Below, piece after piece: positions 10,475 through 24,273 of a stretch of 64,000 bases of DNA (within the stretch, counting starts at the first letter, position 1; every line of letters begins with the position of its first letter). A model generated the notes under the pieces. It was not told where the DNA came from and ran no database searches. It was given only the letters and a program-made list of their open reading frames with translations. A program made the translations under genes and the position numbers. The stretch lies in the IMG/VR virus record IMGVR_UViG_3300043409_001462, positions 96,001-160,000 of that record. One strand, 5' to 3'. The stretch is from a virus.

Positions 10475-10660
10475 ATGTTCGTAGCAATTCTCACGAATTT
10501 CGGTAACACCATCTATAGCGGTGACGACCTGTCAGCTGCTATTGCTAAGGTTGAGTCTGCTTGCTTCGAAGCCACGGTTCAGCATTACGAATCAGACGGT
10601 CGTAGCGGACTGATGAGCTATTCTCCCATCTCTGGGTGGAGGACGATTGTTTCGTTCTAG
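10475..10660 (+). CDS. Small early hypothetical protein
   Basis: AGGAG RBS. Confidence 0.6.
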   Translation: MFVAILTNFGNTIYSGDDLSAAIAKVESACFEATVQHYESDGRSGLMSYSPISGWRTIVSF

Positions 10661-10674
10661 GAACAATTTTCCTG

Positions 10675-10703
10675 TTGACTTCCTCTGAAAGCTGTAGTAT
10701 ACT
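10675..10703 (+). promoter_or_regulatory. Early sigma70-like promoter
   Basis: TTGACT-N17-TATACT; near copy of the promoter at 10011. Confidence 0.8.
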
Positions 10704-13304: not shown

Positions 13305-13382
13305 CCTCCGTTGGTGTAGCGGTCTAACATACCCGCCTTTCAAGCGCGGAGATCATCGGTTCAAATCCGATACGGAGGACCA
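13305..13382 (+). tRNA. tRNA-Glu(TTC)
   Basis: Loop CTTTCAA; bulged anticodon stem; CCA. Confidence 0.85.
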
Positions 13383-14056: not shown

Positions 14057-14662
14057 ATGCAAAATGAAGTGATAAGTCTTTTCCCAACAGCTGTTATGAA
14101 GTCTACATTGGACAGAAAACTTTCAAGAAAAGAAGTTAATTTTGTAAAGAAGAATTTTAAAAATATTAGAAGCAATTTGCAAAACAGTACTAGTTGTGAT
14201 AATTATATTTTAGAAAACCAAGAATTTGTTTCTTTGAAAGAGTTTATTGAAACACAGTTAGATGTATATTACAGAAAAGTATTAAATGTTGATACAAGCT
14301 CAAAGATCTACATTACACAATCATGGTTGAATTATTCTAAGCCAGGTGAATCACATCATCCACATACACATACTAATAGTTTTTTGAGTGGCGTATTCTA
14401 CATTAGCACAAATGAAAATGATAGAATTTTCTTTAGAAAACAAAAAGAATTTATACATATACCACCAACTGTTTGTAATGTTTGGAATTCTGATTTGTGG
14501 GCATTGTCAGCTGTAGAAGGATATCTTTATATTTTTCCTTCAAACCTTGAGCATTATGTGGAAAAAATAACAGGTAGTAAAACAAGAATTAGTTTGAGTT
14601 TCAATTCATTCATATCTGGAAAAATTGGAGCTCCTGATTTCTTATCAGAATTAAAGATATAA
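14057..14662 (+). CDS. 2OG-Fe(II) oxygenase (TIGR02466-like)
   Basis: LFPT start, SWLN, HxH (HHPHTHTNSFLSGVFY), FPSNLEHYV, RISLSFN. Confidence 0.85.
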   Translation: MQNEVISLFPTAVMKSTLDRKLSRKEVNFVKKNFKNIRSNLQNSTSCDNYILENQEFVSLKEFIETQLDVYYRKVLNVDTSSKIYITQSWLNYSKPGESHHPHTHTNSFLSGVFYISTNENDRIFFRKQKEFIHIPPTVCNVWNSDLWALSAVEGYLYIFPSNLEHYVEKITGSKTRISLSFNSFISGKIGAPDFLSELKI

Positions 14663-14741: not shown

Positions 14742-14816
14742 GGTGCCTGAGTAGGACGGTAATGCGCAGGTCTGCAAAACCTTGAGAACCCAGTTCAACT
14801 CTGGGAGGCACCTCCA
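14742..14816 (+). tRNA. tRNA-Cys(GCA)
   Basis: Loop CTGCAAA; U73 CCA. Confidence 0.88.
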
Positions 14817-14994: not shown

Positions 14995-15591
14995 ATGATT
15001 AGCAAACATTTATTGAATGAATTGAATTATATTGTAATTGATAGTGGTGTAAAGATGGAAGGTAATTTGTTTTACTACCATCAGACGACACCATCTGATA
15101 ATCTTTACGAACCTTTCGAAAAGAAACGTCAGAACCTACAGCTATTGGCTAAGAAGTTTGATAACATTATGGAGATCGGTTTCAATGCTGGCCATAGTGC
15201 TGCTTTGATGCTCGAAGCCAATCCTAATCTGTTCTTGGTTAGCATCGATATTGGTGAACATAGCTATGTTTCTTCATGCGGAAAGGCTATTCAATCTGCT
15301 TTCCCTGGAAGGCACCAGCTTATCATCAAGGATTCGAAGCTTATCACTCAGAAAGAAATTAGCTTCGCTCAAGCTGTCATCGTTGATGGTGGTCATGAAT
15401 TTGATGATTGCTCTGCAGACTTGGAGTTGTGTAAAACGTACTGCGCGCCAGGAACAGTTATCGTTATCGACGATATTGATTTGAATGGAGTGCAGCTTGC
15501 GTATAGGCATCACTCTAGAAGTTTGTCAGTATGGAAAGATATTGAAACAATATATAACCAAGCTTTCTTCACATTAAACTCGCCCGAGTAG
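14995..15591 (+). CDS. Class I SAM-dependent methyltransferase (Methyltransf_24-like)
   Basis: MEIGFNAGHS, SIDI, VDGGH, VIDD. Confidence 0.85.
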   Translation: MISKHLLNELNYIVIDSGVKMEGNLFYYHQTTPSDNLYEPFEKKRQNLQLLAKKFDNIMEIGFNAGHSAALMLEANPNLFLVSIDIGEHSYVSSCGKAIQSAFPGRHQLIIKDSKLITQKEISFAQAVIVDGGHEFDDCSADLELCKTYCAPGTVIVIDDIDLNGVQLAYRHHSRSLSVWKDIETIYNQAFFTLNSPE

Positions 15592-15658
15592 TCCAATTGG
15601 CAGAGGCGCTGGTCTTAGAAACCAGATGTTGGGGGTTCAAATCCCTCCTCGGGCACCA
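15582..15658 (+). tRNA. tRNA-Leu(TAG), short variable loop
   Basis: Loop CTTAGAA; CCA; overlaps the upstream stop codon. Confidence 0.88.
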
Positions 15659-15662
15659 TTTT

Positions 15663-16263
15663 AGGTTGTGTTCAGCATACAATGGATGAACCAGTCGGTC
15701 GGGTGTTCGAGTCACCCCAGGAGCTCCTTGCTTCTGTAGCTCAGTGGTAGAGCAACTGCCAAAAAGTACAACCTGTTGAAAATAGTGCTTGACTTATCCG
15801 TAGATAAAGCGTATTATATGTGTATTGAGTTTGAGATTGACCGTTCAGCAAACAGCTTTTGATCAAGCTAGTAGCCCCTGGGCTACGTATAGACTGGCTT
15901 TATACCTGGTCTCCAGTGGTTGTTTCTTCGGGCGTCCACTATAAAAAAATGAAATAAGAAGTCAATCTGTTGAGTTTTAGGAAGCATTCGGCAAACAATT
16001 ATTGATTGGTTCAACTCCAATACCAGCGGTTCACGCTAGTACGCCTCGTGTGGGGCAACTGCTTCCTGTTGAGTTCTAGGATTGTTACAGCATAAATGCA
16101 CTTGATTTGTAATCAAACCCGCAAAGGGCAATCCTGTTGAGTTTTAGGGTCAGTTCCGCATCTAAAATGATTGCATATATCAAACCAAGATGACCCTGTT
16201 GAGTTTAGATTCAGTTCCGCAACCAATCAAATCGACTTGAAATCGACCAAAGTGAATCTGTCG
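15663..16263 (+). ncRNA. Array of six Y-RNA-like/tRNA-mimic cassettes upstream of Ro60-like gene
   Basis: Units start at 15663, 15834, 15979, 16078, 16146 and 16207; each is AG-stem + T(T/A)CNGCA + variable cargo + complementary stem-CT + GTTGA(G) (GTCG in unit 6). Confidence 0.85.
15789..15817 (+). promoter_or_regulatory. Sigma70-like promoter inside the RNA array (would drive units 2-6 and the DUF2828 gene)
   Basis: TTGACT-N17-TATTAT. Confidence 0.75.
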
Positions 16264-16280
16264 TAAAATGGAGAAGTGAA

Positions 16281-17711
16281 ATGAATACCTTTGTAAATGC
16301 CGTTGTTAATCAGGAAGCTCGTACCGAAAATGGTATGAAGGCTCGCCAGTCTACTGCTAATGCATTGACTGATCTGTTCTTCAAGATCGGTGCTATGCGT
16401 GGTCAGAATGTAATTCCTGCTTGGACTGCTGCTCGTGCTCATGATACTTTGCTTGCATCTCGTATCGCTCTTTGGGCACGTGATGTTCGTGGTGGTGCTG
16501 GTGAACGTAAAATCTTCCGTGACATTTTAGTTGATCTTGCTTCAGCTGATCCTCATCGTGGTGTGGCTCTTGGTCGTAAGATTCCAGAGCTTGGTCGTTG
16601 GGATGACTTCCTTGTGTTCGTTGGTACCCCTCTTGAGGAGTATGCGTTCGAAACTATCCGCGAAGCTCTCGAAGCTGGTAATGGTCTCTGTGCAAAGTGG
16701 ATGCCTCGTCAAGGTGAAACAGCTGTAAAGCTTCGTAAGTACCTTGGTTGGACTCCTAAGTTCTACCGAAAGCGTCTGGTTGAATTGACCAAGGTTGTCG
16801 AAACTCAGATGTGCGCTAAGGACTGGGATAACATCAACTTCAACCATGTTCCTTCGGTTGCTTCTTCTCGTTACAAGAAGGCATTCGCTCGTCATACTGA
16901 CAAGTACAAGGAATGGACTGCGGCTCTTGTTTCTACTGATCCAGAGGTGGCTAAGTCTGTTAAGGTCAATGCTGGTGCGGTTTATCCTTACGATGTGTTG
17001 AAGGGTGTGATTAATCATTATGGGCGTTATGATCAATCTAACTTGAATCATATCCTTGCTCAGTGGGAAGCTTTGCCTAACTTCGTTGGTAATGCTAACA
17101 TTCTTCCGCTTGTTGACGTTTCTGGTTCAATGACTTCGAAGGCTGGTGGTTATCAGTCAAAGTCAGAAGTAACCTGCCTTGATGTTGCAGTTTCTCTTGG
17201 TCTGTATCTCGCAGACAAAAACAAGGGTAAGTTCAAGGATACTTTCTTGACCTTCTCTAGCGATCCTCAGCTGCTTCATCTTCGCGGTAACATCCTCGAT
17301 AAGGTAAAGCAGATGGTATCTTCAAAGTGGGAAATGAACACCAATTTGCATCGTGCGTTGGATAAGATCCTTCGCACCGCGATTGAAGGTAACGTTCCTC
17401 AGTCAGAAATGCCAGGTGCATTGTTGATCCTTTCTGATATGCAGTTTGATTCTTGCACTCGTCACGATGACTCTGCTATGGAAATGATTAAGCGTAAGTA
17501 TGTTGATGCTGGTTACAATGTACCTAACATTGTGTTCTGGAATCTCAATGCTCACGACAATGTTCCTGTCAAGTATGACACTCGTGGTGCTGCTCTTGTT
17601 TCTGGTTTCTCACCTTCTATCGTTAAGGCTGTTCTGCAGGCTGAGATGGATAACTTTACGCCAGAAGCTATCATGATGCAAACCATTATGAACCCACGAT
17701 ATGACTACTAA
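16281..17711 (+). CDS. DUF2828-family helical + vWA protein (Ro60/TROVE-like RNA-binding protein)
   Basis: RTENG, RDVRGGAGER, GRWDD, AKWMPR, VPSVAS, MIDAS DVSGSM, NTNL, ILSDMQFD, FWNL, VSGFSP. Confidence 0.85.
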   Translation: MNTFVNAVVNQEARTENGMKARQSTANALTDLFFKIGAMRGQNVIPAWTAARAHDTLLASRIALWARDVRGGAGERKIFRDILVDLASADPHRGVALGRKIPELGRWDDFLVFVGTPLEEYAFETIREALEAGNGLCAKWMPRQGETAVKLRKYLGWTPKFYRKRLVELTKVVETQMCAKDWDNINFNHVPSVASSRYKKAFARHTDKYKEWTAALVSTDPEVAKSVKVNAGAVYPYDVLKGVINHYGRYDQSNLNHILAQWEALPNFVGNANILPLVDVSGSMTSKAGGYQSKSEVTCLDVAVSLGLYLADKNKGKFKDTFLTFSSDPQLLHLRGNILDKVKQMVSSKWEMNTNLHRALDKILRTAIEGNVPQSEMPGALLILSDMQFDSCTRHDDSAMEMIKRKYVDAGYNVPNIVFWNLNAHDNVPVKYDTRGAALVSGFSPSIVKAVLQAEMDNFTPEAIMMQTIMNPRYDY

Positions 17712-17780
17712 GGAAAAGCTTATAGTATTCCTTATGCTAATGTGGATGCCCATTGTTGTGATGGGCATCCTATTCTTCAC

Positions 17781-17856
17781 GCTGCAATAGCTCAGTTGGT
17801 AGAGCACTTGATTAGTAATCAAGATGTCGCGAGTTCGATCCTTGCTTGCAGCACCA
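17781..17856 (+). tRNA. tRNA-Thr(AGT)
   Basis: Perfect stem CTTGA/TCAAG, loop TTAGTAA; CCA. Confidence 0.88.
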
Positions 17857-18230: not shown

Positions 18231-18355
18231 TCTCAAAATGGAGATATTATGTACAAAATATACACGCTAGTGATTGATAACATTACCAAATTAGTTTGGT
18301 TAGCATTAATGACCTATTGGTTATCCGATGGTGTCAAGATAACGTCGCTATTCAA

Positions 18356-19003
18356 ATGAAGAAATTAGCTCTCTTCAATCATCACCCTGAATGTTCTAAT
18401 CAGTGTTGTATGGGTATGATGAGAGCTTTAGAACCACATTATAAAGTCAAGTGGTTTGATGTTCGTTCCAATCTAGACGAGGTGCTTGATAATGTGGATG
18501 GGTTACTTTTTCCTGGTGGCATTGGCGATAGTGATTCCTATTTCGATTTCTTTACACGTTCTAAAGCTAACAAAATCGCATCGTTTATTGCTAGAGGCGG
18601 TCGGTATATCGGCATTTGTATGGGTGCTTATTGGGCTGGGTCTAGATATTTTGACATTCTTGACAATGTAGATGCGGTTCAGTATATTAAAAGACCAACA
18701 GCTGAGATACGCCGAAGCTATGGCACGGTTGCTGATATCGAATGGCTTGGTCAAAAAGAAAAGATGTTCTTCTATGATGGCTGTACCTTTGTTGGACCAG
18801 GTCGCTATGATACTATTGCCAAGTATGCCAACGATGAACCAATGGCGATCATTCAAGGCAACATAGGTATTATTGGTTGCCACCCTGAGAGCGAAGAGTT
18901 TTGGTTCGAAGATCCTTATCAATATATCAACAAACACTGGCATAAAGGTAAGCATCATCAGTTACTACTAGAATTCGTAAATAAGTTATGGAGAGTTGGC
19001 TGA
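18356..19003 (+). CDS. BPL_N / class I glutamine amidotransferase-like protein
   Basis: LFPGGIG, GGRYIGICMGAYWA nucleophile elbow, GCHPE. Confidence 0.8.
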   Translation: MKKLALFNHHPECSNQCCMGMMRALEPHYKVKWFDVRSNLDEVLDNVDGLLFPGGIGDSDSYFDFFTRSKANKIASFIARGGRYIGICMGAYWAGSRYFDILDNVDAVQYIKRPTAEIRRSYGTVADIEWLGQKEKMFFYDGCTFVGPGRYDTIAKYANDEPMAIIQGNIGIIGCHPESEEFWFEDPYQYINKHWHKGKHHQLLLEFVNKLWRVG

Positions 19004-21022: not shown

Positions 21023-22192
21023 ATGATCTATGGTTATCATCCTACATACTATAAACATTTTTTGAGAATTGCTTCTAAATATCCTAACGATAGCAGAGCG
21101 AAACAAATCTTAAACTTTAACTTCCACAGCAGAAAGGAAAATCCTCTCTGGTGGATTAGTCGTTTTATGCACAATCAAGTTCCAGTTGACAGAACTGATA
21201 CATTTAATATTCTTAAGGTTGACACTTGGTCGATACCAGATGTAGATACATCATTCAAAAAAACATTCGATCAAATATGCTACGGAACAGCTACAGAATA
21301 CTGGAACAATAATGACGACGTAAGCGTTCTTTGGTCTGGTGGATTAGATAGCACATGTGTCGCTATTGCATTCATAGAAACAAAACCAGCTGGTAAAAAA
21401 CTAACATTGGTAGGCACGCAAGAAAGCGTTGACGAGTATCCCTCTTTCTATGAACAGCATAAAGCTTTAATGAAGATTGATACTACTGAAGAATTTTGGG
21501 GAAGGTTTAAATATCATCAAAATGAAACTCTGTATGTTTCTGGTGATATTGGGGACCAAATATTCGGCGGTGTTATAGATGAATATGCTGATCATAAAGA
21601 CGAACCTTGGGAGAGCTTTATCGAGTGGAAAGATGTGTTCGAACAAAGTGCTTTCAATGCAGATAATTTAATCCGAGATTGGTATAAGGATGAAAAAAGT
21701 TTATTCATCAAAAGATTTACTGAGTTCAATAAAAAAGCACCATTCCCAATCGTTACTATTTTAGATTTTGTCTGGTGGTTAACATTTACAACTAGATTTA
21801 ATGGTGCTGCAAACAACATAACAAATCTTGTCAATGCAGTTTATAAATTAGAAAAAGCTGCTATAGGAACAGTTAACTGTTTCTTTCACAACTACGAATT
21901 TGAACAATGGTCGATGCTTAATCATCATTTGAAATTTCCTGGCGGACCAGAAACATACAAACAACCTATCAAAGATTTTATTGCGAAGTACAATGGTGAT
22001 ATGGATTTTCTTCTCAATAAAAGAAAAGAAAAATCTACACCTCGCCTTTTAGGAAGCGATGATTGGTTTAAACAATGGCGCTTGAACGATTACTCAAATT
22101 ATTATTTGATTATGTCAGATGGAACCATATATAATACTAAGAATGACATTCCTTTCGAACTGATGGTAAAGTCTTTAACATTTATAAAGTGA
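21023..22192 (+). CDS. PP-loop adenine nucleotide alpha-hydrolase (asparagine synthase-like)
   Basis: WSGGLDST, SGDIGDQIFG, DFVWW. Confidence 0.7.
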   Translation: MIYGYHPTYYKHFLRIASKYPNDSRAKQILNFNFHSRKENPLWWISRFMHNQVPVDRTDTFNILKVDTWSIPDVDTSFKKTFDQICYGTATEYWNNNDDVSVLWSGGLDSTCVAIAFIETKPAGKKLTLVGTQESVDEYPSFYEQHKALMKIDTTEEFWGRFKYHQNETLYVSGDIGDQIFGGVIDEYADHKDEPWESFIEWKDVFEQSAFNADNLIRDWYKDEKSLFIKRFTEFNKKAPFPIVTILDFVWWLTFTTRFNGAANNITNLVNAVYKLEKAAIGTVNCFFHNYEFEQWSMLNHHLKFPGGPETYKQPIKDFIAKYNGDMDFLLNKRKEKSTPRLLGSDDWFKQWRLNDYSNYYLIMSDGTIYNTKNDIPFELMVKSLTFIK

Positions 22193-22965: not shown

Positions 22966-24273
22966 ATGATAACTTCAGACGAAACACTTTATTTTTTTAA
23001 CATAAGAGACCAGCAAAAGTTTTGGAAAGAAATTTATCCATCGGCTCCACCAGCAAGTAAATTTTATATTGACATCACAAAAAGAATAAACCCACATAGA
23101 CTTTGTAATAGAAACGAAGGCGAGTGGAGTTTACCTTGGAAGCAACACGCTCCTGATAAATTTAAAATGCTTCCATACAATCCAAATTTTAATAAAACGT
23201 ATGAAGAAGTAACTGATGAAAGAGCTATGGATATCAAACGAGGTATCCATGCTGGTAAAAAATATGCAGTGATGTATTCTGGTGGTATGGATTCTACCAG
23301 TGTTGTTGTCGCACTATTAAAGAACTTGACCAAGGAAGAATTAAAATGCGTTACGATATGCGCATCGATTCATAGTCTTGTAGAATATCCCCTTTTCTGG
23401 CGCAAATATATTCAAGATAAATTTGAAGTTTTAGATTCCAACAAATATTTGTACGACGATTATATTGGTATGGGTTATACTCCTATCACAGCTGATGAGG
23501 GTGATTGTATCTTTGGTACTTCTATCGGATTGCAACTTTATCATAATTACGATTATCTTGTTGGGTTGCAGGATCCTGCGGTGCAGGGTAATTTAATGAA
23601 ATTGAAATATCGAATATCAGATGGTGATGTTCATTATAGTCTTTTTAAAGATGTTATCGCTAGATATTTTGCATATGACGATACGCCTTCTGGATTAGAA
23701 TTCGGCAGGTTACTTTATGCGAAGTATCATCGTAATATTATTACGTCTTCCGTGCCAATTTATTCTCTACACGATTTCTTTTGGTGGCTTATCTTCAACG
23801 TAAAATATTTGAATTGTTCAATCCGTGGCGCTATTTTCTTCAACGCTACAATGCCTTTCGATAAGTGCGTTGACTCTATTGAAAACTGGTTTAATGGACC
23901 TGGATTTCAGTACTGGAGTATGAATAACAATAACAATGGATTGAAAATTAAAAAGACTCTAGCTTCATATAAACATATTCAAAGGAAATATATCTACGAT
24001 TTCACCAAAGATGATTGGTATTTTTGGTACAAAACCAAGCTAGAATCTATGGGTAATTTGTCTGTCAAGGGTAAAAATGATATGTCTAAATCATTTACCA
24101 ATAGCGTTATTGGAATTAATGATAAGAATGAGTATCTTTGTATCCCTGACCCTGATGATTTAGATTCAGTTGTCAATAGCAAATATCAAGGTGTGTATCA
24201 TTATGGTCCAGATGTGAGAAATTTTTTCGAAGAATCATTAATGAAATTCGAAATAGACTGGATGGATGACTAA
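22966..24273 (+). CDS. PP-loop adenine nucleotide alpha-hydrolase (paralogue)
   Basis: YSGGMDST, TADEGDCIFG, HDFFWW, YKTKLES. Confidence 0.7.
   Translation: MITSDETLYFFNIRDQQKFWKEIYPSAPPASKFYIDITKRINPHRLCNRNEGEWSLPWKQHAPDKFKMLPYNPNFNKTYEEVTDERAMDIKRGIHAGKKYAVMYSGGMDSTSVVVALLKNLTKEELKCVTICASIHSLVEYPLFWRKYIQDKFEVLDSNKYLYDDYIGMGYTPITADEGDCIFGTSIGLQLYHNYDYLVGLQDPAVQGNLMKLKYRISDGDVHYSLFKDVIARYFAYDDTPSGLEFGRLLYAKYHRNIITSSVPIYSLHDFFWWLIFNVKYLNCSIRGAIFFNATMPFDKCVDSIENWFNGPGFQYWSMNNNNNGLKIKKTLASYKHIQRKYIYDFTKDDWYFWYKTKLESMGNLSVKGKNDMSKSFTNSVIGINDKNEYLCIPDPDDLDSVVNSKYQGVYHYGPDVRNFFEESLMKFEIDWMDD

What the first reader, a model, noticed from the sequence alone, without database searches (positions are those of the whole stretch)
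15663..17711. Array of six modular RNA cassettes with tRNA-mimic cargo directly upstream of a Ro60-like DUF2828/vWA protein
Seen in sequence: six tandem units share one scaffold while the closing stem covaries. U1 AGGTTGTG/TACAACCT (15663-15774); U2 AGATTGAC/GTCAATCT (15834-15968); U3 AGGAAGCA/TGCTTCCT (15979-16067); U4 AGGATTGT/GCAATCCT (16078-16135); U5 AGGGTCA/TGACCCT (16146-16197); U6 AGATTCA/TGAATCT (16207-16259). Each 5' strand is followed within 0-2 nt by T(T/A)CNGCA. Each 3' strand is followed by GTTGA(G) (GTCG in U6), and a T-rich linker joins units 2-6. The enclosed cargo (about 30-110 nt) differs in every unit. The array ends about 20 nt before a gene whose helical N-terminus plus DxSxS vWA domain matches the architecture of Ro60/Rsr. 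Established: bacterial Ro60 binds adjacently encoded Y RNAs through a terminal stem, and YrlA RNAs carry a tRNA-like module. Inference: this is a distinct RNP system in which one protein loads several processed RNAs through a conserved handle (not the canonical Y-RNA GGUCCGA-type motif), each displaying different cargo. Possible roles are decoys or baits for host anticodon nucleases, or adaptors for RNA repair or decay.
Basis: partly seen in the sequence, partly recalled or inferred. Interest (0 to 1): 0.95.

Follow-up and report, generated by a model that had tools for sequence, protein, structure and literature searches.

The report
Phage Ro60-like protein with handle-RNA array
A 173-kb phage encodes six small RNAs that share one conserved "handle" but carry different pieces of tRNA, placed directly in front of a gene for a protein predicted to fold like the RNA-binding ring Ro60; I found no paper describing this RNA-protein pair, which recurs in very different phages.

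Summary
Six tandem units (15662-16264, + strand) share an 8-bp closing stem that covaries. The stem is followed 5' by U(U/A)CNGCA(A) and 3' by an A-rich run and (C)UG-UUGA. A composite scan finds exactly these six on the + strand of the 64-kb window. The gene that follows (16281-17711, DUF2828/DUF7788) has no sequence match to TROVE or Ro60, but its model (pLDDT 93) matches Ro60 structures over its full length (Z 21.3).

A covariance model of the handle gives 195 hits in 80 related loci, all on the gene's strand. In the de-duplicated set 144 lie upstream, 2 downstream and none inside the gene. It also hits beside homologues in Synechococcus and Listeria phages, and weakly beside those of Staphylococcus, Felix O1-type phages and mycobacteriophages. 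It gives none at E<=0.01 in 1.07 Mb of phages that lack the gene.

The cargo is tRNA parts: a permuted T/acceptor/D body (U1), a T-arm (U3), and anticodon stem-loop copies (U4, U6).

This is most likely a Ro60/Y-RNA-like particle with a non-canonical handle. Binding and function are untested. Earlier runs of this scan noted the same system on other DNA. I found no published description.

The parts
15582..15658 (+). tRNA-Leu(UAG), the last tRNA before the array. U1 starts 4 nt after it and is probably co-transcribed with it.
   Evidence: ARAGORN; Rfam tRNA 60.6 bits
15662..15779 (+). Unit 1. Handle (UAGGUUGUG / UACAACCUG, UUCAGCA, tail UUGA) enclosing a permuted tRNA-like body: T-arm, closed acceptor-like hairpin, D-arm (YrlA-like layout).
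   Evidence: Handle model R2 31.8 bits, E 1.8e-6, not in the training set; Rfam YrlA 39.1 bits, below the gathering score of 69; fold
15789..15817 (+). Sigma-70-like promoter (TTGACT, 17 nt, TATTAT) between U1 and U2. It probably drives U2-U6 and the gene.
   Evidence: Consensus scan, 10 of 12; both hexamers are invariant in three relatives while the spacer between them varies
15834..15973 (+). Unit 2. Handle (AGAUUGAC / GUCAAUCU, cg, UUCAGCA, tail GUUGA) with a 110-nt cargo of four hairpins and an A-rich 3' segment. What the cargo resembles is unknown.
   Evidence: Composite scan; orthologues in L001-L005; missed by model R2; weak PreQ1-like hit only
15978..16072 (+). Unit 3. Handle with a T-arm-like hairpin (AUUGG-UUCAACU-CCAAU) and two further hairpins.
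   Evidence: R2 25.2 bits, E 1.8e-6 with filters off; fold; orthologues
16077..16140 (+). Unit 4. Handle with an anticodon-arm copy, CUUGA-UUUGUAA-UCAAA (anticodon UGU).
   Evidence: R2 59.8 bits (training member); 15 of 17 nt identical to the anticodon arm of the phage's own tRNA-Thr(AGU)
16145..16202 (+). Unit 5. Handle with a short hairpin with the 7-nt loop UGCAUAU.
   Evidence: R2 51.4 bits (training member); fold
16206..16264 (+). Unit 6. Handle with a hairpin whose loop CUUGAAA equals the anticodon loop of the phage's tRNA-Ser(UGA). It ends 16 nt before the ATG.
   Evidence: R2 50.3 bits (training member); loop comparison; the same position is kept in 44 of 54 loci
16270..16273 (+). Shine-Dalgarno GGAG of the Ro60-like gene.
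   Evidence: Read directly in the sequence
16281..17711 (+). Gene for a 476-aa protein (DUF2828 + DUF7788, phrog_850) with a predicted Ro60-like fold: a ring of helical repeats plus a vWA domain with a full MIDAS motif.
   Evidence: Pfam; PHROGs; AlphaFold2 pLDDT 93, pTM 0.91; Foldseek top 13 all Ro60; VIA-align Z 21.3
17744..17770 (+). Terminator-like hairpin after the gene, followed by the next tRNA block (tRNA-Thr at 17781).

Best explanation
This is a phage-encoded counterpart of the Ro60/Y-RNA particle, built from a very divergent Ro60-fold protein (DUF2828/DUF7788) and its own family of modular small RNAs. The RNAs are made inside the tRNA operon. U1 follows tRNA-Leu, and U2-U6 plus the gene follow a conserved promoter. 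The units are probably cut apart at the 2-5 nt U-rich linkers. Each RNA keeps the same handle: an 8-bp closing helix whose sequence is free to vary, the unpaired motif U(U/A)CNGCAA on its 5' side, an A-rich run on its 3' side, and a single-stranded (C)UG-UUGA tail. I infer that the ring protein recognises this handle. The variable body displays a part of a tRNA: a T/acceptor/D body in U1, a T-arm in U3, and anticodon stem-loops in U4 and U6. The particle would present these parts to enzymes that act on tRNA. The two leading roles are decoy or sponge for host tRNA-cleaving defence nucleases, and tether for an RNA decay or repair enzyme, as Ro60-Y RNA-PNPase does. The last unit lies against the ribosome-binding site, so it may also let the protein repress its own translation. 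Shown here: the RNA family, its covariation, its link to the gene, and the predicted fold. Inferred: binding, processing and function.
For: 1. Handle and covariation.
2. Link to the gene: the R2 model gives 195 hits at E<=0.01 in 80 loci, all on the gene's strand. In the de-duplicated set 144 are upstream, 2 downstream and 0 inside the gene. The last unit ends 6-18 nt before the ATG in 44 of 54 loci.
3. Reach across distant phages: Synechococcus phage BUCT-ZZ01 (E 1e-8 and 2e-4) and Listeria phage LMTA-57 (5e-7 and 3e-6) carry units next to the gene. Staphylococcus, Felix O1-type, Serratia and Campylobacter phages and a mycobacteriophage give weaker hits (E 0.003-0.03) next to the gene. In whole records hits are few and on the gene's strand.
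4. Specificity: no hit at E<=0.01 in T5, T4, CcrColossus or phage G (1.07 Mb). None of these has a homologue of the gene, although T5 and T4 carry tRNA clusters and CcrColossus and G are phages in which canonical Ro60 homologues have been reported (PMC12135203). In this 173-kb genome the only hits are in the array.
5. Fold: pLDDT 93. Foldseek's top 13 are all Ro60, E 7e-9 to 5e-6. VIA-align gives Z 21.3, rmsd 4.3 A over 413 residues, against Xenopus Ro60. The top 10 are all Ro60, and the next matches cover only the vWA domain (Z <= 11.7). The MIDAS residues are invariant.
6. tRNA-part cargo: the YrlA hit of U1; the U4 and U6 loops against the phage's own tRNAs. Of 104 cargo hairpins, 47 have 7-nt loops and 30 fit Y-U-NNN-R-N, against 0.05 per shuffled replicate. 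Loops are kept while stems differ, for example CUUGAAA with 8 distinct stems. Related loci carry acceptor-less and permuted tRNAs inside the handle.
7. Precedent: Ro60 genes with adjacent Y RNAs in bacteria and phages (PMC4201824), and Thermus phage phiLo Ro60 binding two upstream Y-like RNAs and host PNPase (PMC12135203). A Ro60-fold protein, gp130 of the Felix O1-type phage Bas63, located next to the tRNA genes, counters the ppl defence (PMC11482910). I did not check that gp130 is the orthologue.
Against: There is no direct evidence that the protein binds these RNAs or that the units exist as separate RNAs. The protein has no detectable sequence similarity to TROVE or Ro60, so the relation rests on a predicted structure. 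The handle does not resemble the Ro60-binding helix of Y RNAs. Most loci lie in tRNA clusters, so adjacency could partly reflect a shared preference for that region. The negative controls and the Listeria and Staphylococcus loci argue against this. In the KVP40-type phage the only strong hit is 7 kb from the gene, and hits in Felix O1-type phages and mycobacteriophages are weak. This phage has no RtcB or Rnl2-type RNA ligase, which removes one easy link to repair. The anticodon-arm copies resemble the phage's own tRNAs; whether they resemble host tRNAs was not tested, which a decoy model would need.
Confidence: 0.75

Rival explanations
1. The units are cis-acting elements of the tRNA operon and of the gene's leader: processing signals, transcript-stabilising hairpins, or an operator for translational control. 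They are not stand-alone partner RNAs.
For: The last unit ends 6-18 nt before the ATG in 44 of 54 loci, and units are packed 2-5 nt apart. The array is embedded among 25 tRNA genes.
Against: The cargo is long, varied and itself conserved as tRNA parts with covarying stems, which a processing signal does not need. Units also occur downstream of the gene, between tRNAs and 7 kb away. Phages with large tRNA clusters but no such gene have none. An operator role for the last unit is compatible with the main explanation.
Confidence: 0.1
2. The units are ordinary members of the known Y RNA / YrlA family, and the protein is an ordinary Ro60 orthologue. On this reading nothing here is new.
For: U1 matches Rfam YrlA at 39.1 bits. 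Similar sub-threshold hits occur in L005, L017 and L029. The protein has a Ro60-like fold.
Against: The score is well below YrlA's gathering score of 69. The match rests on the tRNA-like T and D arms, while the model's Ro60-binding helix is largely unmatched in U1. U2-U6 match no Rfam family at E <= 0.1; the only hits above that are chance-level ones in U2 (PreQ1, SAM-II, CAESAR). The protein has no TROVE Pfam hit. Phages reported to carry canonical Ro60 homologues (CcrColossus, G) lack the handle.
Confidence: 0.05
3. The array is a repeat family with no RNA function, such as a tandem duplication or a small mobile element, and its place next to the gene is incidental.
For: Tandem arrangement with short linkers.
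Against: Only the handle is shared and the bodies are unrelated. The stems covary. All hits are on one strand. The handle is kept between phages of cyanobacteria, proteobacteria and firmicutes whose proteins are 34-48% identical.
Confidence: 0.02

Closest known systems
Ro60 (Rsr, TROVE + vWA) with Y RNAs, including bacterial and phage YrlA (Rfam RF02553; Chen et al. 2014, PMC4201824)
   Same: A ring-shaped protein of helical repeats plus a vWA/MIDAS domain, encoded next to small RNAs. Each RNA is closed by a terminal stem, and at least one carries a tRNA-like T-arm/acceptor/D-arm module (U1).
   Different: The protein has no detectable sequence similarity to TROVE (DUF2828/DUF7788 instead). 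The handle is a different helix and motif (UACAGCAA plus CUG-UUGA, not the Y-RNA helix). There are up to six units in tandem. Many units carry only an anticodon stem-loop or other tRNA parts. The YrlA model scores U1 at 39 bits against a gathering score of 69.
Thermus phage phiLo Ro60 with Yrl1 and Yrl2 (Hu et al. 2025, PMC12135203; PDB 9KOP, 9L5Y)
   Same: A phage-encoded Ro60-fold protein with partner RNAs just upstream of its gene. It is among the best structural matches (Z 16.9).
   Different: phiLo's RNAs were picked by a CGAA motif in a Y-RNA-like bulged stem. They number two and have no reported tRNA-part cargo. Binding and PNPase recruitment were shown there and are untested here.
Class I RNAs of dictyostelid social amoebae (Rfam RF01414; Kjellin et al. 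2021, PMC7919456; pattern in PMC5054030)
   Same: About 60 nt long. A short covarying stem joins the 5' and 3' ends. The motif (CC)UUACAGCAA lies directly after the 5' strand, the middle is variable, and a conserved CUGU follows the 3' strand. U4 here reads UAGGAUUGU-UACAGCA...GCAAUCCUG-UUGA.
   Different: The Rfam Class I model does not hit the array. Class I RNAs are eukaryotic, dispersed genes, probably transcribed by RNA polymerase III according to the authors, and no tRNA-like cargo is reported for them. Common descent is not shown.
gp130 of Felix O1-type phage Bas63 (PhageMaP preprint, PMC11482910)
   Same: A phage protein with a Ro60-like predicted structure, located beside the tRNA cluster. 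The authors guessed it has RNA partners among the tRNA genes.
   Different: No partner RNA was identified there. It was shown genetically to counter the ppl defence. I did not verify that gp130 is the orthologue of this protein, although Felix O1-type phages do carry one.

Membership tests
Ro60 / TROVE family (PF05731 + vWA) | Sequence match to the TROVE domain or to solved Ro60 proteins | tested here: not met
   Pfam at E<=1 gives only DUF7788 and DUF2828. phmmer against all PDB sequences gives no Ro60.
Ro60 / TROVE family (PF05731 + vWA) | Closed ring of helical repeats followed by a vWA domain | tested here: met
   Model pLDDT 93. Foldseek's top 13 are all Ro60 over the full length. VIA-align Z 13-21 for ten Ro60 entries, against <= 11.7 for vWA-only matches. 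This rests on a predicted structure, not a solved one.
Ro60 / TROVE family (PF05731 + vWA) | MIDAS motif DxSxS...T...D in the vWA domain | tested here: met
   D279, S281, S283, T354 and D386 are invariant in 88 homologues.
Ro60 / TROVE family (PF05731 + vWA) | Binds adjacent small RNAs through their terminal stem | not testable with these tools
   Only genomic association is shown.
YrlA / Y RNA (Rfam RF02553) | Score at or above the family's gathering score | tested here: not met
   U1 scores 39.1 bits against 69. U2-U6 give no YrlA hit at E<=10.
YrlA / Y RNA (Rfam RF02553) | tRNA-like module in the order T-arm, acceptor-like hairpin, D-arm | tested here: met
   Met for U1 only: the T and D arms align with high posterior probability. 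U3 keeps a T-arm.
YrlA / Y RNA (Rfam RF02553) | Conserved Ro60-binding helix of Y RNAs | tested here: not met
   In the cmscan alignment the model's outer helices are largely unmatched in U1, and the real closing stem and CAGCA motif lie outside them.
Dictyostelium Class I RNA (Rfam RF01414) | Match to the family's covariance model | tested here: not met
   Over the whole 173-kb genome, no hit falls in the array. The best hits elsewhere have E 0.03-2.8 and are below the cut-off.
Dictyostelium Class I RNA (Rfam RF01414) | Terminal covarying stem, 11-nt motif ending in ACAGCAA after the 5' strand, and a 3' CUGU | tested here: met
   The layout and the 8-mer UACAGCAA agree with the published pattern GTTGRC-CTTACAGCAA...GTCAAC-TG (PMC5054030) and with the description in PMC7919456. 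This compares motifs with the literature only.
Pfam DUF2828 / DUF7788, PHROG 850 | Profile match above the curated cut-off | tested here: met
   DUF7788 164 bits (cut-off 27.1) and DUF2828 63.4 bits (cut-off 29); phrog_850 E 5e-137 over the full length.
tRNA (RF00005) | Cloverleaf recognised by tRNA models | tested here: not met
   No unit of this window is called a tRNA by ARAGORN or Rfam. In the related locus L019, a unit contains a tRNA hit of 52.8 bits that lacks the acceptor ends.

The most novel reading that the evidence does not exclude
DUF2828-type Ro60-like proteins and their handle RNAs form a programmable decoy particle. One ring protein loads a set of RNAs that display anticodon stem-loops and tRNA bodies. 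These soak up or misdirect host tRNA-cleaving defence nucleases, so that swapping the cargo retargets the decoy. As a corollary, the same handle in Dictyostelium Class I RNAs would mark an ancient RNA-protein partnership shared by viruses and eukaryotes.
Probability: 0.22. Interest if true: 0.92.

Novelty: new variant of a known kind. Interest (0 to 1): 0.8.

Why it matters
Ro60 and its Y RNAs are a classic RNA-surveillance particle whose role in bacteria and phages is still poorly understood. This protein family is large: 6,065 clusters at 50% identity and 711 sequenced phages, including well-studied Felix O1-type, Listeria P100-type and KVP40-type phages. It is mostly annotated as hypothetical or simply as an RNA-binding protein.

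A defined partner RNA family would turn an unexplained gene into a testable system. The family has a simple conserved handle and exchangeable tRNA-part cargo. The anticodon-loop cargo points to the current question of how phages cope with tRNA-targeting defences. The modular handle-plus-cargo design could also serve as a scaffold for displaying RNA. The resemblance to the orphan Class I RNAs of social amoebae gives a lead to a partner for those RNAs too.

Tried and rejected
- DNA similarity searches of the array against sequenced phages gave nothing. blastn found no match, and megablast found only a 42-nt patch inside the gene.
- The first covariance model, R1, included the flanks, so neighbouring units overlapped and suppressed each other. 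I replaced it with the trimmed model R2.
- R2 misses U2, which has a 2-nt gap before the motif and a long cargo. It finds U3 only with filters off.
- The Rfam Class I model (RF01414) does not hit the array, so I do not file the units in that family.
- A search of this genome for RNA repair ligases found no RtcB or Rnl2-type gene. The Rnl1-type search is uninformative because its control found nothing anywhere.
- MAFFT with RNAalifold recovered only the closing stem in U6-type units, because the inner hairpins do not align. I therefore anchored on the loop sequences instead.
- The cargo of U2 gave only chance-level Rfam hits (PreQ1 18 bits, E 0.55).
- I could not read Avesson et al. 2011 or Aspegren et al. 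2004. So I could not find out what the protein DDB_G0281243 is; it has unknown function and was pulled down with a Class I RNA.
- I did not use the complex predictor, because it does not take RNA.
Full report
**Setting.** The window is part of a complete 173,384-bp virus record. It is a large phage with a DNA polymerase, a DnaB-type helicase and ribonucleotide reductase. It has 25 tRNA genes, 24 of them between 12778 and 19167. The finding lies inside this tRNA region.

**The observation.**
- Each has a closing stem of 8-9 bp. The outer part is UAGG/CCUG or UAGA/UCUG (GAGA in U2) and the inner part differs in every unit.
- The 5' strand is followed after 0-2 nt by U(U/A)CNGCA. The 3' strand is preceded by an A-rich run and followed by UUGA(G) (UCGU in U6).
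- Units 2-6 are joined by 2-3 nt T-rich linkers.
- A scan for the whole composite signature finds these six and nothing else on the + strand of 64 kb, plus two isolated hits on the - strand.
- Each unit folds with its closing stem.

**Is the stem real?** My first collection of units required pairing, so its 91% pairing is circular. I therefore defined units in 80 related loci and the window by sequence anchors alone. The anchors were the outer four bases plus the CNGCA motif on one side and CCUG-UUG on the other. I then asked whether the four variable positions between them pair.
- 77 of 103 units pair at all four positions, using 23 different tetramers.
- The mean is 3.48 paired positions, against 2.12 +/- 0.08 when partners are shuffled (maximum 2.40 in 2000 shuffles).
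- The outer pairs also change together (UGGG/CCCG, UAGA/UCUG).
- RNAalifold independently predicts the same stem, with compensatory changes at 4 of 7 pairs.

**The protein.**
- ORF 16281-17711 (476 aa) matches Pfam DUF7788 and DUF2828 and PHROG 850, "RNA-binding protein".
- It has no TROVE hit, and phmmer finds no solved Ro60.
- The family is very large: 6,065 representatives at 50% identity and 711 sequenced phages. These include mycobacteriophage proteins annotated as "Ro-like". One that I checked, Breezona gp55, also shows only DUF2828/DUF7788.
- An AlphaFold2 model built from 88 diverse homologues is confident (pLDDT 93, pTM 0.91).
- Foldseek's 13 best PDB matches are all Ro60: Xenopus, human, Deinococcus Rsr and Thermus phage phiLo. 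They align over the full length at E 7e-9 to 5e-6.
- VIA-align gives Z 21.3 (rmsd 4.3 A, 413 residues) against Xenopus Ro60. The ten best entries are all Ro60. The next matches are vWA domains only, at Z 11.7 or below.
- The MIDAS residues D279, S281, S283, T354 and D386 are invariant.
- So the fold is Ro60-like, while family membership by sequence is not shown.

**Link between RNA and gene.** I built a covariance model of the handle (R2: 67 positions, 8 pairs) from 33 short units.
- In this window it finds U4-U6, which were in the training set. It also finds U1 (31.8 bits) and U3 (25.2 bits with filters off), which were not. Nothing else in 64 kb scores below E 1. U2 is missed.
- In 80 IMG/VR loci whose protein is 61-93% identical, it gives 195 hits at E<=0.01, every one on the gene's strand.
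- In the de-duplicated set, 144 hits lie upstream, 2 downstream and none inside the gene.
- Neighbouring units are mostly 2-5 nt apart. In 44 of 54 loci the last unit ends 6-18 nt before the start codon.
- With filters off, the model also finds units beside distant homologues:
  - two directly upstream in Synechococcus phage BUCT-ZZ01 (E 1e-8 and 2e-4);
  - two directly upstream in Listeria phage LMTA-57 (5e-7 and 3e-6);
  - two just downstream in a Staphylococcus phage (0.003 and 0.012);
  - two between the tRNAs after the gene in a Felix O1-type phage (0.006 and 0.02);
  - single weak hits next to the gene in Serratia phage BF, Campylobacter phage F357 and mycobacteriophage Breezona.
- Whole-record searches show few hits, all on the gene's strand. 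The KVP40-type phage has one strong hit, 7 kb upstream.
- As negative controls I searched T5, T4, CcrColossus and Bacillus phage G, 1.07 Mb in all. None has a homologue of the gene, and none has a hit at E<=0.01. T5 and T4 have tRNA clusters, and Ro60 homologues with Y-like RNAs have been reported in CcrColossus and G (PMC12135203).
- The handle therefore goes with this gene, not with tRNA clusters or with canonical Ro60.

**The cargo.**
- U1 gives a sub-threshold YrlA hit (39.1 bits, gathering score 69) through a T-arm and a D-arm separated by a closed acceptor-like hairpin. This is a tRNA opened at the anticodon arm, with the handle in its place.
- U3 starts with a T-arm (AUUGG-UUCAACU-CCAAU).
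- U4 carries CUUGA-UUUGUAA-UCAAA, which is 15 of 17 nt identical to the anticodon arm of the phage's own tRNA-Thr(AGU).
- The loop of U6, CUUGAAA, equals that of its tRNA-Ser(UGA).
- Across 103 distinct short units, 47 of 104 predicted cargo hairpins have 7-nt loops, and 30 fit the anticodon-loop pattern Y-U-NNN-R-N. Shuffled cargo gives 5 and 0.05 per replicate.
- Anchoring on the loop sequence alone, CUUGAAA is flanked by a stem of at least 4 bp in 14 of 18 cases, with 8 different stems. CUUGUAA, CUUCUAA and CUUUUAA behave the same way.
- Longer units in related loci hold a D-arm, anticodon arm and T-arm without an acceptor stem. One is called a tRNA by Rfam at 52.8 bits. Others hold fully permuted tRNAs.
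- The cargo of U2 (four hairpins plus an A-rich tail, conserved in L001-L005) and the loop of U5 remain unexplained.

**Expression signals.**
- A TTGACT-17-TATTAT promoter lies between U1 and U2. Both hexamers are invariant in three relatives while the spacer between them varies.
- U1 follows tRNA-Leu by 4 nt.
- A terminator-like hairpin follows the gene.
- The units, or at least U2-U6, are thus probably made on one transcript with the gene's mRNA.

**Comparison with what is known.**
- Ro60 genes with adjacent Y RNAs are known in bacteria and 22 phages, found through TROVE annotation (PMC4201824). Thermus phage phiLo Ro60 binds two upstream Y-like RNAs and host PNPase (PMC12135203).
- A preprint notes that gp130 of a Felix O1-type phage has a Ro60-like predicted structure, lies beside the tRNAs and counters the ppl defence. 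It identifies no RNA partner (PMC11482910).
- I found no paper that describes this handle or links it to DUF2828 proteins.
- Following a lead from earlier notes of this scan, I checked the Class I RNAs of dictyostelids. The published pattern GTTGRC-CTTACAGCAA...GTCAAC-TG (PMC5054030), and the description of a 6-bp terminal stem, an 11-nt motif and a 3' CUGU (PMC7919456), match the layout and the 8-mer seen here. However, Rfam's Class I model does not hit the array. I therefore report a resemblance, not membership.
- One of four proteins pulled down with a Class I RNA, DDB_G0281243, has unknown function (bioRxiv 10.1101/2020.04.05.026054). I could not find out what it is.

**Verdict.** The best explanation is a Ro60/Y-RNA-like particle with a divergent protein and a non-canonical, modular RNA family that displays tRNA parts. 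Binding, processing and function are inferred. I rate decoy and tether roles as about equally likely. This phage has no RtcB or Rnl2-type RNA ligase of its own. Earlier runs of this scan reported the same system in many other genomes.

Noticed in passing
window 13305-13382 (+): A tRNA with anticodon UCA. ARAGORN calls it tRNA-SeC and Rfam scores it as tRNA at 54 bits. It could be an opal-suppressor or recoding tRNA carried by the phage.
   Followed up: no
window 14742-14813 (+): Rfam finds a further tRNA (43.9 bits) that ARAGORN did not call. It lies between tRNA-Gln and tRNA-Gly.
   Followed up: no
window 10655-10682 (+): A short hairpin, UUCUAGGAA(5 nt)UUCCUGUUGACUUC, has the same outer stem and tail as the handle but no CAGCAA motif and no cargo (model R1, E 0.07). 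It may be chance.
   Followed up: no
window 14057-14662, 14995-15591, 18296-19003, 21023-22192, 22966-24273 (+): Enzyme genes are interleaved with the tRNA cluster or lie just after it: a 2OG-Fe(II) oxygenase, a methyltransferase, a glutamine-amidotransferase-like protein, and two proteins with weak PP-loop ATPase-like hits (QatC/LarE-like). These are possible nucleic-acid-modifying enzymes.
   Followed up: partly
window 15910-15956 (+), inside U2: The last hairpin of U2 plus its A-rich tail gives a weak PreQ1-aptamer-like hit (18 bits, E 0.55). This hairpin-plus-tail module is conserved in the U2 orthologues of L001-L005.
   Followed up: partly
L087:1470-2021 (Listeria phage LMTA-57): A ROOL RNA match (88.5 bits, gathering score 99.1) lies about 0.65 kb upstream of the two handle units and the DUF2828 gene.
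   Followed up: no
L019:888-1006: A handle unit whose cargo Rfam calls a tRNA (52.8 bits, model positions 5-66). It has a D-arm, an anticodon arm (UGU) and a T-arm, with the handle replacing the acceptor stem.
   Followed up: partly
L085:1319-2578 and L087:5850-7061: In Serratia phage BF an RNA ligase gene lies two genes upstream of the DUF2828 gene. In Listeria phage LMTA-57 an RtcB-type 'tRNA-splicing ligase' lies 1.3 kb downstream. This phage has neither.
   Followed up: partly
literature (bioRxiv 10.1101/2020.04.05.026054): DDB_G0281243, a Dictyostelium protein of unknown function, was pulled down with Class I RNA DdR-21. Whether it is a DUF2828-type protein could not be checked here.
   Followed up: partly
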